NCBI RefSeq assembly: GCF_051903065.1
Contig: NZ_CP178438.1
Direction: 5' to 3' (one strand)
Length of the DNA: 64,000 nucleotides
Origin: Escherichia coli
GTDB taxonomy: Bacteria; Pseudomonadota; Gammaproteobacteria; Enterobacterales; Enterobacteriaceae
In this document: positions 1,863 through 54,903 of the stretch, one piece after another
Numbering within the stretch: the first letter of the stretch is position 1
Layout of the letters: every line of letters begins with the position of its first letter
Position numbers and translations under genes: made by a program
Notes under the pieces: model-generated
What the model was told of the DNA's origin: nothing
What the model saw: only the letters and a program-made list of their open reading frames with translations
The model's database searches: none

Positions 1863-3317
1863 TTATTTTTCAATCGGATAGATAGTACCCGTATTCATAA
1901 TGCCGTTAGGATCGAATTGCTTTTTCAGCCCTTCCAGCAACGCCCACGCGCTGCCGTGTTCCAGCTTGCTCCAGTGAACGCGATGTTTACCAATGCCGTG
2001 GTGGTGCACCATCGAACCGCCGAGGCGAATGGTTTCTTCGCAGATGATTTTGTTGAGCGGATTGTGGTACTTGTCGATTTCCTCTTCCGGCTTACAGTCA
2101 ACAACGTTGTAGTCATAGACGAAGTACATGTTTGTGCCGTTCTGATAGCTATGAGAGGAGTGACCGCCCAGCATAGTGATGTCGTCGGCGTGCGGGAACT
2201 CGGTACGAATACGGTTAATAACGCTTTCGTAGATTTCGTGGATGCAGCTCCAGCAGCCGGACACTTCAGTGGTAAAGCCCATGTTGCCGGTTTTGAGGAT
2301 TTGCACACGTTCGGCAGCCACTTTATCCGGTCCCCAGTTCAGGTTGTTAAACCAGGTTTCGATCAGTTTGCTGTCCACGCGCTGGCACTGCGGGTAGCGG
2401 GCAACGATTTCCGCAATCCCTTCGCCCGTCGCCTTCGCAATGCGAGGGTTACCTTCAGCCATAAAGATCAGCACACATTTTCCGTCGGCAAAATGGGTGA
2501 AGTGTTGGGTGCCATCTTCAGCGTCATACAAACGAGCGATCGACGGACGATACCCTTCCACCATGATTTCACGCAGGATGTTGAAGCCGGTTTTCATGTC
2601 TTCCAGGATATAGCCGTAGAAGAGGTTGTTTTTCGGGGTGAATTTAAAGATTTTCACTGTTACTTCAGTGATATAGCACAATGCACCTTCGTTGCCGATG
2701 ATGATGTGACGAATGTCCGGGCCAGCCGCGCGGCGTGGCACGTTTTTAATACGTGTGACGGTGCCATCAGCCAATACGGCTTCCAGACCAACGACCATAT
2801 CTTCGATTGCGCCGTAGAGTGTGGAGAACTGCCCGATACTGCGGGTTGCTACCAGGCCGCCCATCTGCGCCAGCGGCTTTGACTGCGGAGAATGCCCAGT
2901 GGTGTAACCTTTTTCACGCAACGCGTTTTCCAGCACCTCCAGCGGAACGCCACATTGCGCCGTCGCCTGCATATTCTCAATATCAATATTAATGATTTGA
3001 TTCATGGCGGAACCGTCGAGCACCACCGAGTTTTCTACAACAGTTTCCAGCCCACCTTCGGTGGCGGAAGCACCGGTACGCGGCACACCGTTAATTTTGT
3101 GCGCATTCATAAAATTCAGCACACGGGAGACTTGTTCTGTGGAACCGAGTTTTACGACCGCAGCCGGAATCGGCAAAGTATAAATACCATGAATATCCGG
3201 AAATTTACGAAAACGGTCAATACTGTTCTTCTTTAATACTGTTTCATCGGTAATTACGCGATCTGCACCAACAATTTCCTTTAGCTGGTCGACAATCGCT
3301 GCGCGAGATAAAGACAT
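1863..3317 (-). CDS. ygcU: FAD-linked oxidoreductase (GlcD / alkyl-DHAP synthase-like)
   Basis: 484-aa ORF with an FAD-binding PCMH-type domain signature; same length and position as K-12 YgcU. Confidence 0.85.
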   Translation of the reverse strand: MSLSRAAIVDQLKEIVGADRVITDETVLKKNSIDRFRKFPDIHGIYTLPIPAAVVKLGSTEQVSRVLNFMNAHKINGVPRTGASATEGGLETVVENSVVLDGSAMNQIINIDIENMQATAQCGVPLEVLENALREKGYTTGHSPQSKPLAQMGGLVATRSIGQFSTLYGAIEDMVVGLEAVLADGTVTRIKNVPRRAAGPDIRHIIIGNEGALCYITEVTVKIFKFTPKNNLFYGYILEDMKTGFNILREIMVEGYRPSIARLYDAEDGTQHFTHFADGKCVLIFMAEGNPRIAKATGEGIAEIVARYPQCQRVDSKLIETWFNNLNWGPDKVAAERVQILKTGNMGFTTEVSGCWSCIHEIYESVINRIRTEFPHADDITMLGGHSSHSYQNGTNMYFVYDYNVVDCKPEEEIDKYHNPLNKIICEETIRLGGSMVHHHGIGKHRVHWSKLEHGSAWALLEGLKKQFDPNGIMNTGTIYPIEK

Positions 3318-3386
3318 AGTAATTCCTTCCTGATAATAAAAATGGAATAATCATTAATAAGAGAAAACAGAAACCACCGTTATGGG

Positions 3387-4172
3387 TTAGCGCACTAAAT
3401 AACCGCCATCAACCACTAATAAATGCCCGTTGACATAATTCGATGCCGGACTTGCGAGGAATACGGCTGCGCCCATTAAATCCTGAGTATCGCCCCAACG
3501 GTTTGCTGGAATATGATCAAGAACGCGCTGATTGGTTTCTGGATTACTGCGTGTCGCCAGCGTAATATCTGTTGCATAATAGCCAGGGGCGATACCATTT
3601 ACCTGAATATTATATTGACCTAGTTCATCACAATAAGCTTTGGTGAACCCGGCAAGAGCATGTTTAGTGGCAGAATATGCAGGTGACCATTGTCCACCTA
3701 AGTAAGAGAACAATGAACAGATATTAATGATTTTACCGCTTTTCTGCGGGATCATAATTTTTGCTGCTTCGTAGCTTAACTCAAATGCGGCGGTCAGGTT
3801 CACATCAATCATTGGATCCCAGTCGGCACGACCGAAGTCCAGCACCTTATTCAGCTTACAAATACCGGCATTGTTAACCAGAATATCGACGGTACCGAAA
3901 CGTTCGCAACAGGCGGCGATTATCTTCTGCGGCGCGCCTTCTGCGGTGATATCCACCTGCATGAAGTCCACCTCAACACCCTGTTTTTCAATCATTTCCT
4001 TTGTTTCGCCGTTATCTTTGACAAAACTTGGAATAAAGACATTTGCGCCTGCTTTGGCCAACGCCATGGCAAATGCCTGGCCTAAACCGCTATTCCCGCC
4101 GGTAACAATTGCGGTTTTACCTTTCAGGGAGAAAAAATCCATTGAGAACGCATTGAGAGATTCGATTGACAT
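3387..4172 (-). CDS. ygcW: Short-chain dehydrogenase/reductase (SDR) family oxidoreductase
   Basis: TGGNSGLG Rossmann motif and YxxxK catalytic motif (YSATK); start placed at MSIESLNAF (4172) instead of the longer ORF-track start. Confidence 0.85.
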   Translation of the reverse strand: MSIESLNAFSMDFFSLKGKTAIVTGGNSGLGQAFAMALAKAGANVFIPSFVKDNGETKEMIEKQGVEVDFMQVDITAEGAPQKIIAACCERFGTVDILVNNAGICKLNKVLDFGRADWDPMIDVNLTAAFELSYEAAKIMIPQKSGKIINICSLFSYLGGQWSPAYSATKHALAGFTKAYCDELGQYNIQVNGIAPGYYATDITLATRSNPETNQRVLDHIPANRWGDTQDLMGAAVFLASPASNYVNGHLLVVDGGYLVR

Positions 4173-13414: not shown

Positions 13415-14308
13415 ATGCGCTTAATCTTTATTCTATTCACTTTGTGGTGCCTTCCTGGGCTTGCCCAGCAAATTGCTGTGCCGGAACTGCGCCAACAGGT
13501 GACCGATATTACTGGTACGTTAAGCACTTCTGAACAACAATCACTGACACAGCAACTGCAGGATATTACACATAAAACACGGGCGCAGGTCGCTGTATTA
13601 GTAGTGCCGTCCACCGGAGACGATTCCATTGAACAATATGCAACACGCGTTTTTGATAGCTGGAAACTGGGAGATAAGCAGAGAAACGATGGTATTTTAC
13701 TTCTGGTTGCCTGGGAGGATCATGCTGTTCGTATTGAGGTTGGCTACGGGCTGGAAGGGATGGTTACCGACCTGCAAGCGGCGAAAATTATCAGGGATAT
13801 ATTGATCCCTGCCTTCAAAAGTGATGACCTGATGGGTGGATTAACACTGGCAAGCGAAAATATCGGCGCGCTTCTGTTGAATGGTGAATTATCGGAAGAC
13901 AAGGGGGATTATTACAGTATCAATCCCCCTATTCCATTATCGCTTGCTGTAATTATATTGCTGGCGGTACTTTCATATTTTATTGTTTTTACCGATCCGT
14001 CGAATTTACCCTGGATCACTCTCACTGGCGCCATTTACGGGATGGTATTCCTCTATGTTGCCGAGCCAGGACCATGGACCAATTTAATCGTTGCCTGCGG
14101 TATGTTAACACCTTTTGCGATCGTGACGCTGGTTATTTTTTGGCTTATCGTTAATAAAAAGCTACGCGCCAAATACAAAAAACTCAGTAAAGAAAGAGCT
14201 TCAAGAAAAGGTTCTTCTTCATCCTCTTCCGGTGGAGGCTCAAGTGGCGGCGGATTTAGCGGCGGGGGCGGTTCTTCTGGCGGTGGCGGCGCGTCCGGTC
14301 GCTGGTAA
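13415..14308 (+). CDS. TPM-domain (YgcG-like) membrane protein, paralog 3 (likely the counterpart of K-12 ygcG)
   Basis: Signal peptide, TPM domain closely similar to paralog 1 (...SIEQYATRVFDSWKLGDKQRNDGILLLVAWEDHAVRIEVGYGLEG...), tail ...GGGGSSGGGGASGRW; start could also be 13403, overlapping the upstream stop. Confidence 0.85.
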   Translation: MRLIFILFTLWCLPGLAQQIAVPELRQQVTDITGTLSTSEQQSLTQQLQDITHKTRAQVAVLVVPSTGDDSIEQYATRVFDSWKLGDKQRNDGILLLVAWEDHAVRIEVGYGLEGMVTDLQAAKIIRDILIPAFKSDDLMGGLTLASENIGALLLNGELSEDKGDYYSINPPIPLSLAVIILLAVLSYFIVFTDPSNLPWITLTGAIYGMVFLYVAEPGPWTNLIVACGMLTPFAIVTLVIFWLIVNKKLRAKYKKLSKERASRKGSSSSSSGGGSSGGGFSGGGGSSGGGGASGRW

Positions 14309-14321
14309 CTCAACCATAAAA

Positions 14322-14350
14322 AACGCCAGCCCGGAGGCTGGCATTTTTAA
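14322..14350. terminator. Bidirectional intrinsic terminator between the TPM cluster and eno
   Basis: Hairpin gccagcc-cggag-ggctggc flanked by an A-run upstream and a T-run downstream, between convergent genes. Confidence 0.6.
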
Positions 14351-14367
14351 ATCAGATAAAGTCAGTC

Positions 14368-15681
<1,314 letters not shown>

Positions 15682-25538: not shown

Positions 25539-25610
25539 CGGACGTCTTGTCGAGTAGCAATCGGCTTTTTATGACGCTGGTTTCAGATTGGTGACAAAGT
25601 GCCTGTGTTT

Positions 25611-25709
25611 ATGCCGGATGCGGCGTTAACGCCTTATCCGGCCTACAAAACCAATTAAATTCAATAAATTAAAAAGCATGTAGGCCTGATAAGCGTAGCG
25701 CATCAGGCA
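25611..25709. repeat. REP/BIME palindromic elements downstream of barA
   Basis: gccggatgcggcgttaacgccttatccggcctac and inverted partner tgtaggcctgataagcgtagcgcatcaggc. Confidence 0.8.
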
Positions 25710-25770
25710 ATTTTGTGTTTGGCATCAGTCTCAAACCGGCTCCAGATAGAGCCGGTTTTGGTTTTTTGTC

Positions 25771-52711: not shown

Positions 52712-52761
52712 GCACAGTACCAGGTCGGATAAGACGTTCGCGTCGCATCCGACCTGATTAT

Positions 52762-53568
52762 TTACCCCTGACGAGCCGCTTTCGCCATCATCTTTTTCAG
52801 CGCATGAGAAACCGCAACAAAACCAAAGGTGGCGGTCACCATCGTCGCCGCGCCAAATCCAGATGCACAATCCATCCGCTTCGGCCCTTCTGCCGTGGCT
52901 TTCATAGCACACACCGTACCGTCTGACTGCGGGTACACCAATGCTTCGGTAGAGAACACGCAATCGACGCCGAGCTTACCTTTACTGTTTTTCACTACGC
53001 CAAAATCGCTTTTCAGGCGCTCACGCAACTTCGCCGCCAGCGGGTCCTGAATCGTTTTCGCCAGATCGGTAACCTGAATCTGCGTCGGGTCAATCTGCCC
53101 ACCCGCGCCACCGGTTGTGACCAGTGGGATTTTATTGCGCCGACAATAAGCAATCAGCGCCGCTTTGGGCCGTACACTATCAATGGCATCAATCACGTAC
53201 GAATAACCCACGCTCATATACTGCGCTACGTTATCCGGCGTCACGAAATCATCCACCACCGTTACACGGCACTCCGGGTTAATCTGGCGAATACGCTCCG
53301 CCATAACTTCCGCTTTTGCCAGCCCAACGTTATCGCGCAGGGCATGAATTTGCCGATTGGTATTGGTGACGCACACATCATCCATATCGATAAGCGTGAT
53401 TGCGCCAATCCCCGTGCGCGCCAGCGCTTCCGCCGCCCAGGAACCGACACCGCCAATACCGACCACACAAATATGCGCGTCAGCAAACAGTTGCAGCGCT
53501 TTTTCACCATACAGACGCGCTGTGCCACCAAAACGCTGACGCCATGCATCACTAATTACCACAGACAT
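52762..53568 (-). CDS. tcdA: tRNA threonylcarbamoyladenosine dehydratase (E1-like)
   Basis: 268 aa with ThiF/MoeB-type nucleotide-binding motif VVGIGGVGSWAAEALARTG. Confidence 0.92.
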   Translation of the reverse strand: MSVVISDAWRQRFGGTARLYGEKALQLFADAHICVVGIGGVGSWAAEALARTGIGAITLIDMDDVCVTNTNRQIHALRDNVGLAKAEVMAERIRQINPECRVTVVDDFVTPDNVAQYMSVGYSYVIDAIDSVRPKAALIAYCRRNKIPLVTTGGAGGQIDPTQIQVTDLAKTIQDPLAAKLRERLKSDFGVVKNSKGKLGVDCVFSTEALVYPQSDGTVCAMKATAEGPKRMDCASGFGAATMVTATFGFVAVSHALKKMMAKAARQG

Positions 53569-53610
53569 AGCACCTCAGAATAAAAAGGGCGAGGTTATCC
53601 CTCACCCTAA

Positions 53611-53718
53611 ACGCATAAATGCCTGATGCGCTACGCTTATCAGGCCTACATAACTCCTGCAATATTTTGGATTTGCATGATTTGTAGGCCGGATAAGGCG
53701 TTCACGCCGCATCCGGCA
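53611..53718. repeat. BIME (pair of inverted REP elements)
   Basis: gcctgatgcgctacgcttatcaggcctac and inverted tgtaggccggataaggcgttcacgccgcatccggca. Confidence 0.8.
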
Positions 53719-53805
53719 TGAACAACGCGCACTTAGTCAATAATCAGGATGTGAGGTTATCCCTCACCCTGTCATATCCGTAAAAACGGCATACAGAATA
53801 TCACA

Positions 53806-54903
53806 TCAGCCGCTAAAGACGTTACCTGCGCCCGGGGCGGTTTTCAGCACCCAAACCCGTCCATAGTGGTTGTACCAACCTGCGCGGTGCCCGGCTTCCG
53901 GCCCGATCCCTTGATAGATATCGAAGTGTTGGCCTTTGATTGCGCCACCGACATCCAGCGCCACCATCAGACGCAATTCGTACTGACCATTAAATTTGCC
54001 GTTATTATCCAGCAGCGGCACTTCTGCCAGCAAGGTTGTACCTGGCGGAATAATGGAACGATCAGAGGCAACAGAAGCACGGCCAACCAGCGGCACCGCA
54101 CTTGCCCCTTTCACCGGTGCAAAAGATTGCGGTTTAAAGAAGACGAAAGACGGGTTCTGTTCCAGCAGCTCGCGAACCTCGGCTTCACTGTGTGTTTCGC
54201 CCCAGTGACGAATCGCCTGCATCGACATATCTTCTTTTTTCACTTCGCCACGGTCGATCAGCACCTTACCAATGCTGCGATAGGCATGACCGTTTTTCCC
54301 TGCATAGCTGAAAAAGTTAAGCGGACTGCCATCACCAAAGTCGATATACCCACTACCCTGCACATCCATAATGAAGTTATCCATCAGGGAGTTACTGTAA
54401 GCGAGAATATATTTATCACTCAATGCCCCCGCGTAGATCTCCGCACGAGACGGCAGACGACCACGTTTTGGCGGCATACGGTAAATAGGATACTGGAACT
54501 CGCCCTGGCGGGTATGGCGCGCCTGAATTACCGGCGTGTAATAGCCTGTAAACTGCACGTTACCATAGTTGTCGGCACCTTCCATCTGCCAGGCATCAAT
54601 GCCGAACTGACGCATATTGCGGGTATCACCGCCTGCGCGCAGCCACTCTTGCACCGCGTTATAAACATTACTCTGGTTGCCATACAGACGCGGTGACGAA
54701 TTACGGATATGGTTAATTTGCTCGGCAAAATCACCGGCGTTAATCGGCGCGCCAACGGCATCTGGCTGGTTCACCAGAGAGAAAGGCTGGGTAAATTTCC
54801 CGTCTTTATATTGCTGTCCGCGATCGGTTGGTTTGGAAGAGCAGGCGGCAAGCATTGCCACAACCATGCCCATAAGAAGGTACTTTACCCAACGTCCTTT
54901 CAT
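53806..54903 (-). CDS. mltA: Membrane-bound lytic murein transglycosylase A
   Basis: 365 aa starting MKGRWVKYLLMGMVVAMLAACSS (lipobox); the ORF-track N-terminal extension runs into the tRNA genes and is rejected. Confidence 0.93.
   Translation of the reverse strand: MKGRWVKYLLMGMVVAMLAACSSKPTDRGQQYKDGKFTQPFSLVNQPDAVGAPINAGDFAEQINHIRNSSPRLYGNQSNVYNAVQEWLRAGGDTRNMRQFGIDAWQMEGADNYGNVQFTGYYTPVIQARHTRQGEFQYPIYRMPPKRGRLPSRAEIYAGALSDKYILAYSNSLMDNFIMDVQGSGYIDFGDGSPLNFFSYAGKNGHAYRSIGKVLIDRGEVKKEDMSMQAIRHWGETHSEAEVRELLEQNPSFVFFKPQSFAPVKGASAVPLVGRASVASDRSIIPPGTTLLAEVPLLDNNGKFNGQYELRLMVALDVGGAIKGQHFDIYQGIGPEAGHRAGWYNHYGRVWVLKTAPGAGNVFSG

What the first reader, a model, noticed from the sequence alone, without database searches (positions are those of the whole stretch)
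53591..53770. BIME flanked by an 18-bp direct repeat
The 18-mer gaggttatccctcaccct occurs at 53591-53608 and again at 53753-53770, bracketing a pair of inverted REP elements between tcdA and mltA. This may be a composite repeat unit or the footprint of a duplicated insertion.
Basis: seen in the sequence. Interest (0 to 1): 0.2.

Follow-up and report, generated by a model that had tools for sequence, protein, structure and literature searches.

The report
BIME-1 insertion that duplicated a terminator hairpin
The two 18-base repeats are two copies of the mltA transcription-terminator hairpin, duplicated when a 144-bp BIME-1 repeat element inserted at its foot, and the same hairpin duplication brackets many other BIME-1 copies, giving a sequence footprint of how these elements insert.

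Summary
GAGGTTATCCCTCACCCT occurs exactly twice in the window, at 53591-53608 and 53753-53770, around a 144-bp BIME-1 (Z1 REP, L linker, Y REP, outer motifs).

The 18-mer is not BIME consensus. Across 100,044 species genomes it occurs in Enterobacteriaceae only in this spacer. It is the 3' part of the 23-nt intrinsic terminator hairpin downstream of mltA.

- Enterobacter and Citrobacter carry one hairpin and no BIME.
- 2751 of 5426 complete E. coli genomes carry hairpin-BIME-hairpin.
- The sampled remaining genomes are exactly 162 bp shorter, with one intact hairpin.
- One Escherichia lineage has at least 7 tandem 162-bp units.

So this is a target duplication. It later allowed precise excision and tandem amplification.

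The pattern is general. In 35 independent BIME-1 loci, 11 show a locus-specific flanking hairpin duplication (about 0.35 expected). The element ends abut hairpin feet. At all five loci checked, the empty allele has one hairpin.

I infer staggered integration at the two feet of the hairpin, possibly when it is extruded as a cruciform. The enzyme is unknown.

I found no description of this footprint in the literature I could read.

The parts
53586..53608 (-). Complete copy of the mltA intrinsic terminator hairpin. On the + strand it reads AGGGCGAGG-TTATC-CCTCACCCT. It contains the left 18-mer (53591-53608).
   Evidence: The terminator scan finds a 9-pair stem followed by TTTTATTC on the minus strand. 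RNA fold gives -17.2 kcal/mol, z = -5.3. The same hairpin is the only copy in empty E. coli alleles and in Enterobacter and Citrobacter.
53578..53585 (-). U-tract of the terminator (TTTTATTC on the minus strand). It lies a few nt upstream of the tcdA Shine-Dalgarno sequence and start codon (53566-53568).
53609..53620 (.). Truncated left outer motif of the BIME-1 (AAACGCATAAAT). The first 12 nt of the family's left terminus (GAGACTGATGAC) are missing.
   Evidence: Alignment with the fepA-entD paralogue and with the 152-bp consensus of 12 complete copies.
53621..53649 (.). Z1-type palindromic unit (REP), GCCTGATGCGCTACGCTTATCAGGCCTAC.
   Evidence: The identical 29-mer recovered 120 BIME-1-type stretches in metagenomes.
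53650..53683 (.). L linker of the BIME-1. The IHF-site motif is degenerate in this copy.
   Evidence: The region aligns to the L motif of other BIME-1 copies. Rfam ES036 matches 53642-53684 above its gathering score. The IHF consensus has 1 mismatch in the family consensus, and no match at 1 mismatch or fewer here.
53684..53717 (.). Y-type palindromic unit (REP) with 5' GTAG, inverted relative to Z1.
   Evidence: Partial Rfam naRNA4 match.
53718..53747 (.). Right outer motif, the terminal inverted repeat of the BIME-1 (…GCGCACTTAGTCAATAATCAG). It is followed by 3 nt of unassigned filler (GAT, 53748-53750).
   Evidence: Homology to paralogues runs to insert position 137 of 144. Family consensus terminus.
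53751..53770 (.). Second, partial copy of the terminator hairpin. The 20 nt GTGAGGTTATCCCTCACCCT include the right 18-mer (53753-53770).
53745..53771 (-). Hairpin formed by the right copy plus the last bases of the BIME-1 (CAGG-AT-GTGAGG TTATC CCTCAC-CCTG). It has a 10-pair stem with a 2-nt bulge and no U-tract.
   Evidence: RNA fold gives -14.1 kcal/mol, z = -3.4. It is not called as a terminator.

Best explanation
The two 18-mers are a target-site duplication. The ancestral tcdA-mltA spacer carried one 23-nt stem-loop followed by a U-tract, the intrinsic terminator downstream of mltA, lying just upstream of the tcdA ribosome-binding site. A 144-bp BIME-1 (Z1 REP, L linker, Y REP, with outer motifs that are imperfect terminal inverted repeats in the family) integrated at the foot of this hairpin. 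Most of the hairpin was copied in the process. The complete copy with the U-tract now lies next to tcdA, and an 18-20-nt copy lies next to mltA.

Shown here: the duplication, the empty alleles, the empty outgroups, and the same architecture at many other BIME-1 loci.

Inferred: integration happens by two strand breaks staggered by the length of the hairpin, one at each foot. These two positions are brought together if the palindrome is extruded as a cruciform. The two ends of a double-stranded BIME-1 are then joined and the gaps are filled in, so the duplication length follows the hairpin length (16-32 nt at different loci). The enzyme is not identified. TnpA-REP (RAYT) is the only candidate in the literature, and its known single-strand chemistry does not predict a duplication.

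After insertion, the direct repeats around a palindromic element allow two further events. One is precise excision by slippage, which restores the single hairpin and gives the E. coli alleles that are exactly 162 bp shorter. The other is unequal exchange, which gives tandem arrays of the 162-bp unit.
For: This locus:
- In Enterobacteriaceae the 18-mer is confined to this spacer across 100,044 species genomes.
- Enterobacter asburiae, E. soli and Citrobacter sedlakii have one hairpin and no BIME.
- 2751 of 5426 E. coli genomes are occupied, and sampled non-occupied genomes are exactly 162 bp shorter with one intact hairpin.
- The insert is a whole dispersed BIME-1. Homology to paralogues starts at the left junction and ends 7 nt or less before the right repeat.
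- The left copy is a predicted terminator.
- Divergent Escherichia lineages share the occupied structure. The flanks of an empty allele differ from the window by only 2 of 285 positions, fewer than the flanks of occupied K-12 do.
- At least 7 tandem units occur in Escherichia sp. MOD1-EC7003.

Generality:
- In 35 independent BIME-1 loci, left-flank versus right-flank similarity exceeds the 99th percentile of cross-locus pairs in 11 loci (binomial P = 3e-14).
- A strong hairpin abuts the element end within 2 nt on 35 of 70 flanks, against 13% of control positions (P = 2e-13).
- At all five loci tested (tcdA-mltA, metE-ysgA, artJ-rlmC, uspB-pitA, yajD-tsx) the empty allele has one hairpin and the occupied allele has the hairpin on both sides.
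- The 152-bp family consensus folds end to end and has 12 of 16 complementary terminal bases.
Against: - At this locus the left terminus of the element is truncated by 12 nt.
- 3 nt (GAT) at the right junction are unassigned.
- The duplication covers 18-20 of the 23 hairpin bases rather than all of them, so this case is less clean than others.
- About 60% of the sampled BIME-1 loci show no significant duplication. They may have decayed, lost one copy (as in the YD786 artJ-rlmC allele and the K-12 yajD-tsx allele), or never been duplicated.
- E. albertii has a different right junction: a full 23-nt hairpin copy, with 16 nt of the right outer motif missing. Whether it shares the E. coli event is therefore unclear.
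- No enzyme is known that cuts at both feet of a terminator hairpin.
- No de novo BIME-1 insertion has been observed. The cruciform step is pure inference.
Confidence: 0.8

Rival explanations
1. The 18-mer is part of an extended BIME consensus or composite repeat that moves together with the REPs. The two copies are then element sequence and not target sequence.
For: In Escherichia sp. MOD1-EC7003 the 162-bp unit including the 18-mer is repeated in tandem.
Against: In Enterobacteriaceae the 18-mer occurs only in this spacer. It is absent from the closest paralogue and from all 35 other BIME-1 loci, each of which has its own flanking hairpin. It is present once in alleles and genera that have no BIME.
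Confidence: 0.02
2. The hairpin was duplicated in tandem first, for example by slippage. A BIME-1 later landed between the two copies, or the similarity is coincidental.
For: None specific. Tandem duplication of short palindromes does occur.
Against: No allele with two adjacent hairpins and no BIME was seen at any of five loci. The same architecture recurs at 11 or more independent loci with different hairpins, which coincidence does not explain.
Confidence: 0.03
3. The insertion is real but was not made by a transposase-like staggered cut. A replication or repair template switch at a polymerase stalled on the hairpin copied a BIME-1 from elsewhere (or from an excised single-stranded circle made by TnpA-REP) and then resumed upstream, re-copying the hairpin.
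For: - The left end of the element is truncated here, and at the same point (AAACG) in several other loci.
- 3 unassigned bases sit at the right junction.
- At L066 the junction shows microhomology between target and element.
- TnpA-REP cleaves single-stranded DNA at CT dinucleotides with low specificity around a REP, and its in vivo mechanism is unknown (PMC3333891).
Against: Most complete copies end at the same terminal bases (GAGACTG… and …AATCTG), directly against the hairpin foot. This argues for defined ends, not variable switch points. No homology exists between element ends and the locus-specific hairpins to guide the return switch.
Confidence: 0.15
4. The occupied state is ancestral for the whole group, and empty alleles in other genera arose by deletion. 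The repeats would then say nothing about insertion.
For: Within E. coli the empty alleles probably are secondary deletions.
Against: Three outgroup species in two genera have the single hairpin in an otherwise diverged spacer. At metE-ysgA every E. coli genome is empty and only another lineage is occupied. Deletion between repeats still requires that the repeats were created first.
Confidence: 0.03

Closest known systems
BIME-1 (also called RIP or RIB elements) of E. coli: Z1 and Y palindromic units separated by the L linker with an IHF site
   Same: The insert has a Z1 unit, an L linker and an inverted Y unit. It is extragenic, lies at the 3' end of a gene, and is 89-90% identical to the fepA-entD BIME-1. 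BIME-1 elements are known to be present or absent among isolates (PMC1187871, citing Bachellier 1997).
   Different: The descriptions I could read do not mention terminal inverted repeats or a flanking duplication of the target hairpin. This copy has a truncated left terminus and a degenerate IHF motif. In one lineage it forms tandem arrays, which are described as typical of BIME-2 and not BIME-1 (PMC3333891).
MITEs (miniature inverted-repeat transposable elements) of bacteria
   Same: Small size (about 150 bp), no coding capacity, imperfect terminal inverted repeats, an end-to-end fold, flanking direct repeats of target DNA, and presence/absence polymorphism.
   Different: MITE duplications have a fixed short length set by the transposase. 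Here the length varies from 16 to 32 nt and follows the target hairpin. No parent insertion sequence with these ends is known. [quoted passage not shown]
REPINs mobilised by RAYT / TnpA-REP (Y1 HUH transposases)
   Same: Two inverted REPs form the unit, and there is a proposed dedicated transposase. The mechanism of spread is acknowledged as unknown (PMC3333891; 2026 preprint 10.64898/2026.03.23.713779).
   Different: IS200/IS605-type single-strand transposition makes no target duplication and needs no terminal inverted repeats (PMC3333891). The GTAG tetranucleotides face inward in BIME-1, so the outer motifs lie outside the REPIN as usually defined.
Repeat duplication during CRISPR spacer integration by Cas1-Cas2 with IHF, and casposon integration (analogy from established knowledge, not tested)
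   Same: Two nucleophilic attacks on opposite strands at the two borders of a partly palindromic sequence duplicate that whole sequence. IHF bending is involved.
   Different: There is no evidence that Cas1 is involved. The inserted DNA is a 150-bp repeat element and not a 33-bp spacer. The targets are many different terminators.
Precise excision of Tn10 and Tn5 by slipped mispairing between target duplications, aided by inverted repeats (established knowledge)
   Same: Direct repeats flanking a palindromic element give exact restoration of the pre-insertion sequence. This matches the 162-bp-shorter alleles.
   Different: The repeats here are 18-20 bp and not 9 bp, and the element is much shorter. 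Excision should therefore be easier. The rate was not measured.

Membership tests
BIME-1 (RIP/RIB) | One Z1 and one Y palindromic unit in inverted orientation | tested here: met
   Z1 lies at 53621-53649 and Y at 53684-53717. The Z1 29-mer is identical in other BIME-1 loci.
BIME-1 (RIP/RIB) | Long L linker between the units, carrying an IHF-binding site | tested here: inconclusive
   The linker aligns to the L motif of other copies and to Rfam ES036. The IHF consensus has 1 mismatch in the family consensus, but this copy has no match at 1 mismatch or fewer. Binding cannot be tested here.
BIME-1 (RIP/RIB) | Extragenic, single copy per locus, at the 3' end of a transcription unit | tested here: met
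   It lies between the mltA stop and the tcdA start. It is a single unit in the E. coli genomes examined. Tandem arrays were seen only in Escherichia sp. MOD1-EC7003.
MITE | Terminal inverted repeats | tested here: inconclusive
   The family consensus has 12 of 16 complementary terminal bases and folds end to end. In this copy the left terminus is truncated by 12 nt.
MITE | Flanking direct duplication of target DNA, with empty sites carrying one copy | tested here: met
   An 18-20-nt duplication occurs here, and the empty alleles have one copy. The same holds at four other loci.
MITE | Fixed duplication length, and a related autonomous insertion sequence with the same ends | tested here: not met
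   The duplication length varies from 16 to 32 nt among loci and follows the hairpin. No parent element was looked for or is known.
REPIN / RAYT system | Two inverted REPs with GTAG feet, forming the mobile unit | tested here: met
REPIN / RAYT system | Mobilisation by the Y1 transposase through single-stranded intermediates, without target duplication | tested here: not met
   A target duplication is present here and at 11 or more other loci. Enzyme dependence is not testable with these tools.
Intrinsic (rho-independent) terminator, for the duplicated sequence | G+C-rich stem-loop followed by a U-tract downstream of a gene | tested here: met
   The left copy has a 9-pair stem followed by TTTTATTC on the mltA strand. 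It is conserved in Enterobacter and Citrobacter. Termination activity was not tested. A published screen lists an attenuator-type terminator upstream of ygdL (= tcdA) in a BIME cluster (PMC2965389).

The most novel reading that the evidence does not exclude
BIME-1 elements behave as structure-targeted mobile elements. They integrate at the two feet of intrinsic-terminator hairpins, probably when these are extruded as cruciforms, and duplicate the whole hairpin. The duplication length is therefore set by the target structure and not by the enzyme. This would be the first sequence footprint of how REP/BIME elements insert. It would explain why they sit at gene 3' ends, why BIME-1 elements are cleanly present or absent among strains, and how tandem arrays start.
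Probability: 0.4. Interest if true: 0.75.

Novelty: new variant of a known kind. Interest (0 to 1): 0.55.

Why it matters
REP/BIME elements are the most abundant repeats in E. coli. They have been known for about 40 years, yet how they insert is still described as unknown (PMC3333891; a 2026 preprint says the in vivo mechanism is not established).

A reproducible footprint gives that question concrete, testable predictions. The footprint has three parts:
- defined element ends;
- insertion at the foot of a terminator hairpin;
- a duplication as long as the hairpin.

It also offers a mechanistic reason, besides selection, for the location of these elements at gene 3' ends. And it explains the clean presence/absence and copy-number polymorphism used for strain typing.

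For this locus specifically, the element sits between mltA and its terminator, just upstream of tcdA. Occupied and empty strains may therefore differ in mltA 3'-UTR structure and in read-through into tcdA.

Tried and rejected
- **Tandem arrays within E. coli.** Two BLAST designs were tried: an array-junction query and a two-unit query. Both were uninformative, because the tool joins permuted or overlapping pieces of a single unit into one full-coverage place. The twelve best hits span 380 bp, which is one unit, so no array was seen, but arrays are not excluded.
- **Naming the element.** NC_000913.3 as held shows no repeat_region features, so I could not name the EcoCyc REP element.
- **Flank extraction.** A regex-anchored approach failed and was replaced by local BLAST.
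- **Older papers.** Bachellier et al. 1997 (PMC1207841) and Boccard & Prentki 1993 (PMC413762) are not held. I cannot exclude that flanking repeats of BIME-1 were noted there.
- **Literature searches.** Six full-text searches were run and eleven papers were read. None describes hairpin duplication.
- **barA-gudD.** No empty allele was seen at the second BIME-1 of the window; 5205 of 5426 genomes carry it.
- **RAYT cleavage rule.** I considered whether cleavage at CT dinucleotides explains the ends. CT occurs inside both termini, but the target junctions are not at CT, so this is not supported.
- **Cas1-Cas2.** I considered it as the integrase and kept it only as an analogy.

Full report
**1. 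Observation**

The 18-mer GAGGTTATCCCTCACCCT occurs at 53591-53608 and 53753-53770 and nowhere else in the window, even with three mismatches allowed. None of 100 shuffles gave two matches. The copies are 162 bp apart, start to start.

They bracket two inverted REPs. The region lies between tcdA (52762-53568, minus strand) and the stop codon of mltA (53806-53808, minus strand). Coordinates of all sub-parts were checked.

**2. What the 18-mer is**

On the mltA strand, the left copy is the larger part of a 23-nt stem-loop (53586-53608). It has a 9-pair stem and is followed by TTTTATTC. The scan calls it a terminator, and it folds at -17.2 kcal/mol with z = -5.3. It ends a few bases upstream of the tcdA ribosome-binding site.

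A published screen for premature terminators lists an element upstream of ygdL (the old name of tcdA) in a cluster that corresponds to BIMEs (PMC2965389).

The right copy, together with the last bases of the BIME, forms a bulged 10-pair hairpin at -14.1 kcal/mol. It has no U-tract.

**3. What lies between the copies**

The 144 bp at 53609-53752 are a BIME-1. In order, they contain:
- a truncated left outer motif;
- a Z1 palindromic unit;
- the L linker;
- an inverted Y unit;
- the right outer motif.

In genomes that lack the element at this locus, the best match to the insert is the fepA-entD BIME-1, at 89-90% identity over insert positions 1-137. The dispersed repeat therefore begins exactly at the left junction and ends no more than 7 nt before the right 18-mer.

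Rfam ES036 matches the linker region above its gathering score. naRNA4, a REP-derived family, matches the Y unit weakly.

**4. The 18-mer is target DNA, not element DNA**

A scan of one genome from each of 100,044 species for GAGGTTAYCCCTCACCCT found 20 stretches. All the enterobacterial ones are this spacer.

Enterobacter asburiae, Enterobacter soli and Citrobacter sedlakii have a single hairpin (AAAAAGGG[T/C]GAGGTTATCCCTCACCCT) and no BIME.

Among 5426 complete E. coli genomes, 2751 have the full structure. Sampled genomes from the rest have a place exactly 162 bp shorter. Three such alleles, once aligned, show one intact hairpin and nothing else missing.

The structure is a target duplication of 18 nt, or 20 nt relative to alleles with T at the position of 53590.

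**5. History at this locus**

The following all have the occupied structure with the same junctions as E. coli:
- the divergent Escherichia lineages E1V33 and MOD1-EC7003;
- the records titled E. coli SCPM-O-B-8794 and E69, whose flanks are 5-9% diverged from the window.

E. albertii is also occupied and has the same left junction. Its right copy, however, is a complete 23-nt hairpin with paired G-to-A and C-to-T changes, and 16 nt of the right outer motif are missing. I cannot tell whether it shares the same event.

Within E. coli, flank haplotypes of occupied and empty alleles are interleaved. The empty RIVM_C039227 allele differs from the window at 2 of 285 left-flank positions, while occupied K-12 differs at 5. 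It also encodes the same TcdA and MltA proteins as a K-12-type occupied strain.

The simplest reading is an old insertion followed by repeated exact loss, or spread of the empty allele by recombination. This rests on only three empty alleles.

**6. Amplification**

In Escherichia sp. MOD1-EC7003, the contig on the tcdA side ends in at least five 162-bp units, and the contig on the mltA side begins with at least two more. The units differ by point changes, so this is not a simple assembly artefact. The unit made of 18-mer plus BIME-1 can therefore expand in tandem.

**7. The pattern is general**

An exact search for the Z1 29-mer in metagenome contigs returned 120 stretches. I clustered them by their flanks into 35 distinct BIME-1 loci.

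I compared the 45 nt left of each element with the 45 nt to its right, in direct orientation:
- 11 of 35 loci score above the 99th percentile of left-versus-right pairs taken from different loci, where about 0.35 are expected (binomial P = 3e-14).
- 14 of 35 score above the 95th percentile.

The duplicated pieces are 16-32 nt long, differ from locus to locus, and are hairpins.

Element ends abut a strong hairpin within 2 nt on 35 of 70 flanks, against 13% of control positions (P = 2e-13). 26 of 35 loci have such a hairpin on at least one side.

Twelve complete copies give a 152-bp consensus. It folds end to end, and its termini (GAGACTGATGACAAA… and …TTTGTCAACAATCTG) are complementary at 12 of 16 positions.

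**8. Empty alleles at other loci**

| Locus | E. coli genomes occupied (of 5426) | Empty allele | Occupied allele |
|---|---|---|---|
| metE-ysgA | 0 | one hairpin | hairpin on both sides (seen only in another lineage) |
| artJ-rlmC | 3192 | one hairpin | hairpin on both sides |
| uspB-pitA | 1940 | one hairpin | hairpin on both sides |
| yajD-tsx | 3805 (80% or more query coverage; mostly the K-12-type allele) | one 27-nt hairpin | hairpin on both sides in the full form |

Two of these loci have extra alleles. At artJ-rlmC, strain YD786 carries a diverged BIME-1 and lacks the left hairpin copy. At yajD-tsx, the K-12-type allele lacks the left hairpin copy and the left terminus, and starts at AAACG as the tcdA-mltA element does.

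With tcdA-mltA, that makes five of five loci. The alleles lacking one copy show how loci with a hairpin on only one side can arise.

The second BIME-1 of the window (25583-25732, barA-gudD) carries a terminator hairpin on one side and a decayed copy (15 of 24 identical) on the other. It is nearly fixed in E. coli.

**9. Mechanism**

Shown:
- defined element ends;
- insertion directly at hairpin feet;
- duplication of the hairpin;
- exact restoration of the hairpin in empty alleles.

Inferred: the two strand breaks in the target are staggered by the length of the hairpin, one at each foot. The two positions are adjacent in space if the palindrome is extruded as a cruciform. A double-stranded BIME-1 is joined at both ends and the gaps are filled in. 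This explains why duplication length varies with the hairpin.

It also gives a possible role to the central IHF site. A sharp bend there would bring the two ends of a 150-bp element together. This is inference only, and the site is degenerate in this copy.

The enzyme is unknown. TnpA-REP cleaves single-stranded DNA at CT dinucleotides near a REP. Its authors state that the mechanism of spread is unknown and propose integration into targets that already carry a REP (PMC3333891). The IS200/IS605 family, to which TnpA-REP is related, makes no target repeats on insertion.

A template-switch origin is the main rival for the mechanism. It is favoured by the truncated left end and the three unassigned bases at this locus. 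It is disfavoured by the constant termini at most loci.

Loss by slippage between direct repeats around a palindrome follows the classical model for precise excision of Tn10 and Tn5 (established knowledge).

**10. Comparison with what is known, and novelty**

The element itself is a known kind (BIME-1, RIP, RIB). Its presence/absence polymorphism is known (PMC1187871, citing Bachellier 1997).

I did not find any description of the flanking duplication of the terminator hairpin, or of terminal inverted repeats, in the following:
- Ton-Hoang 2012: no occurrence of 'duplication' or 'direct repeat';
- Bertels & Rainey 2011: no description of an insertion footprint;
- Di Nocera 2013: no occurrence of 'duplicat';
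- a 2026 preprint: calls the insertion mechanism not fully established.

**11. Verdict**

On its own, the locus is an ordinary polymorphic BIME-1. The general rule it exposes, hairpin-length target duplication at terminator feet, would interest people working on REP/BIME mobility and is directly testable.

Noticed in passing
window 25559-25768: A second BIME-1 lies at 25583-25732 in reverse orientation, between barA and gudD, which converge. A terminator hairpin (AAACCGGCTCCAGATAGAGCCGGTTT) abuts one end. A decayed copy of it (AATCGGCTTTTTATGACGCTGGTT, 15 of 24 identical) abuts the other end. The element is present in 5205 of 5426 E. coli genomes, and no empty allele was seen.
   Followed up: partly
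window 52722-52756: A single REP (AGGTCGGATAAGACGTTCGCGTCGCATCCGACCT) lies between the convergent csdE and tcdA genes. It has no obvious flanking duplication.
   Followed up: no
L023 about 13880-14685 and L022 1-640 (Escherichia sp. MOD1-EC7003): The tcdA-mltA spacer holds a tandem array of at least 7 diverged 162-bp units, split over two contigs. The last hairpin copy is itself interrupted by a 195-bp insert of 27% G+C, flanked by a 10-bp direct repeat (ATCCCTCACC). The same hairpin was therefore hit by a second, unrelated insertion.
   Followed up: partly
L006 about 3285-3480 (E. albertii): The right hairpin copy reads AGAGCGAGATTATTTCTCACTCT. It differs from the left copy by paired G-to-A and C-to-T changes that keep the stem. 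The 16 nt TCAATAATCAGGATGT of the BIME-1 right end are absent. The cause is unexplained: it could be an independent insertion, a deletion, or copy correction.
   Followed up: no
L153 (E. coli YD786, artJ-rlmC) and L156 (K-12-type, yajD-tsx): These are alleles in which the BIME-1 is present but the left hairpin copy is missing. In yajD-tsx the left terminus is missing as well. The YD786 element is about 14% diverged from the K-12-type element at the same site, while the flanks are nearly identical. This suggests an independent insertion or conversion by another copy.
   Followed up: partly
several BIME-1 loci: window 53609, L156, L119, L036: The left end is truncated at the same point in each: the element starts at AAACG, 12 nt inside the consensus terminus. 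This may be a second, shorter form of the left end rather than random damage.
   Followed up: no
window 53642-53684, minus strand: Rfam family ES036 (CssrF sRNA) matches the L linker of the BIME-1 above its gathering score (46.5 bits against 37.6). That 'sRNA' family is therefore in effect a model of the BIME-1 linker.
   Followed up: no
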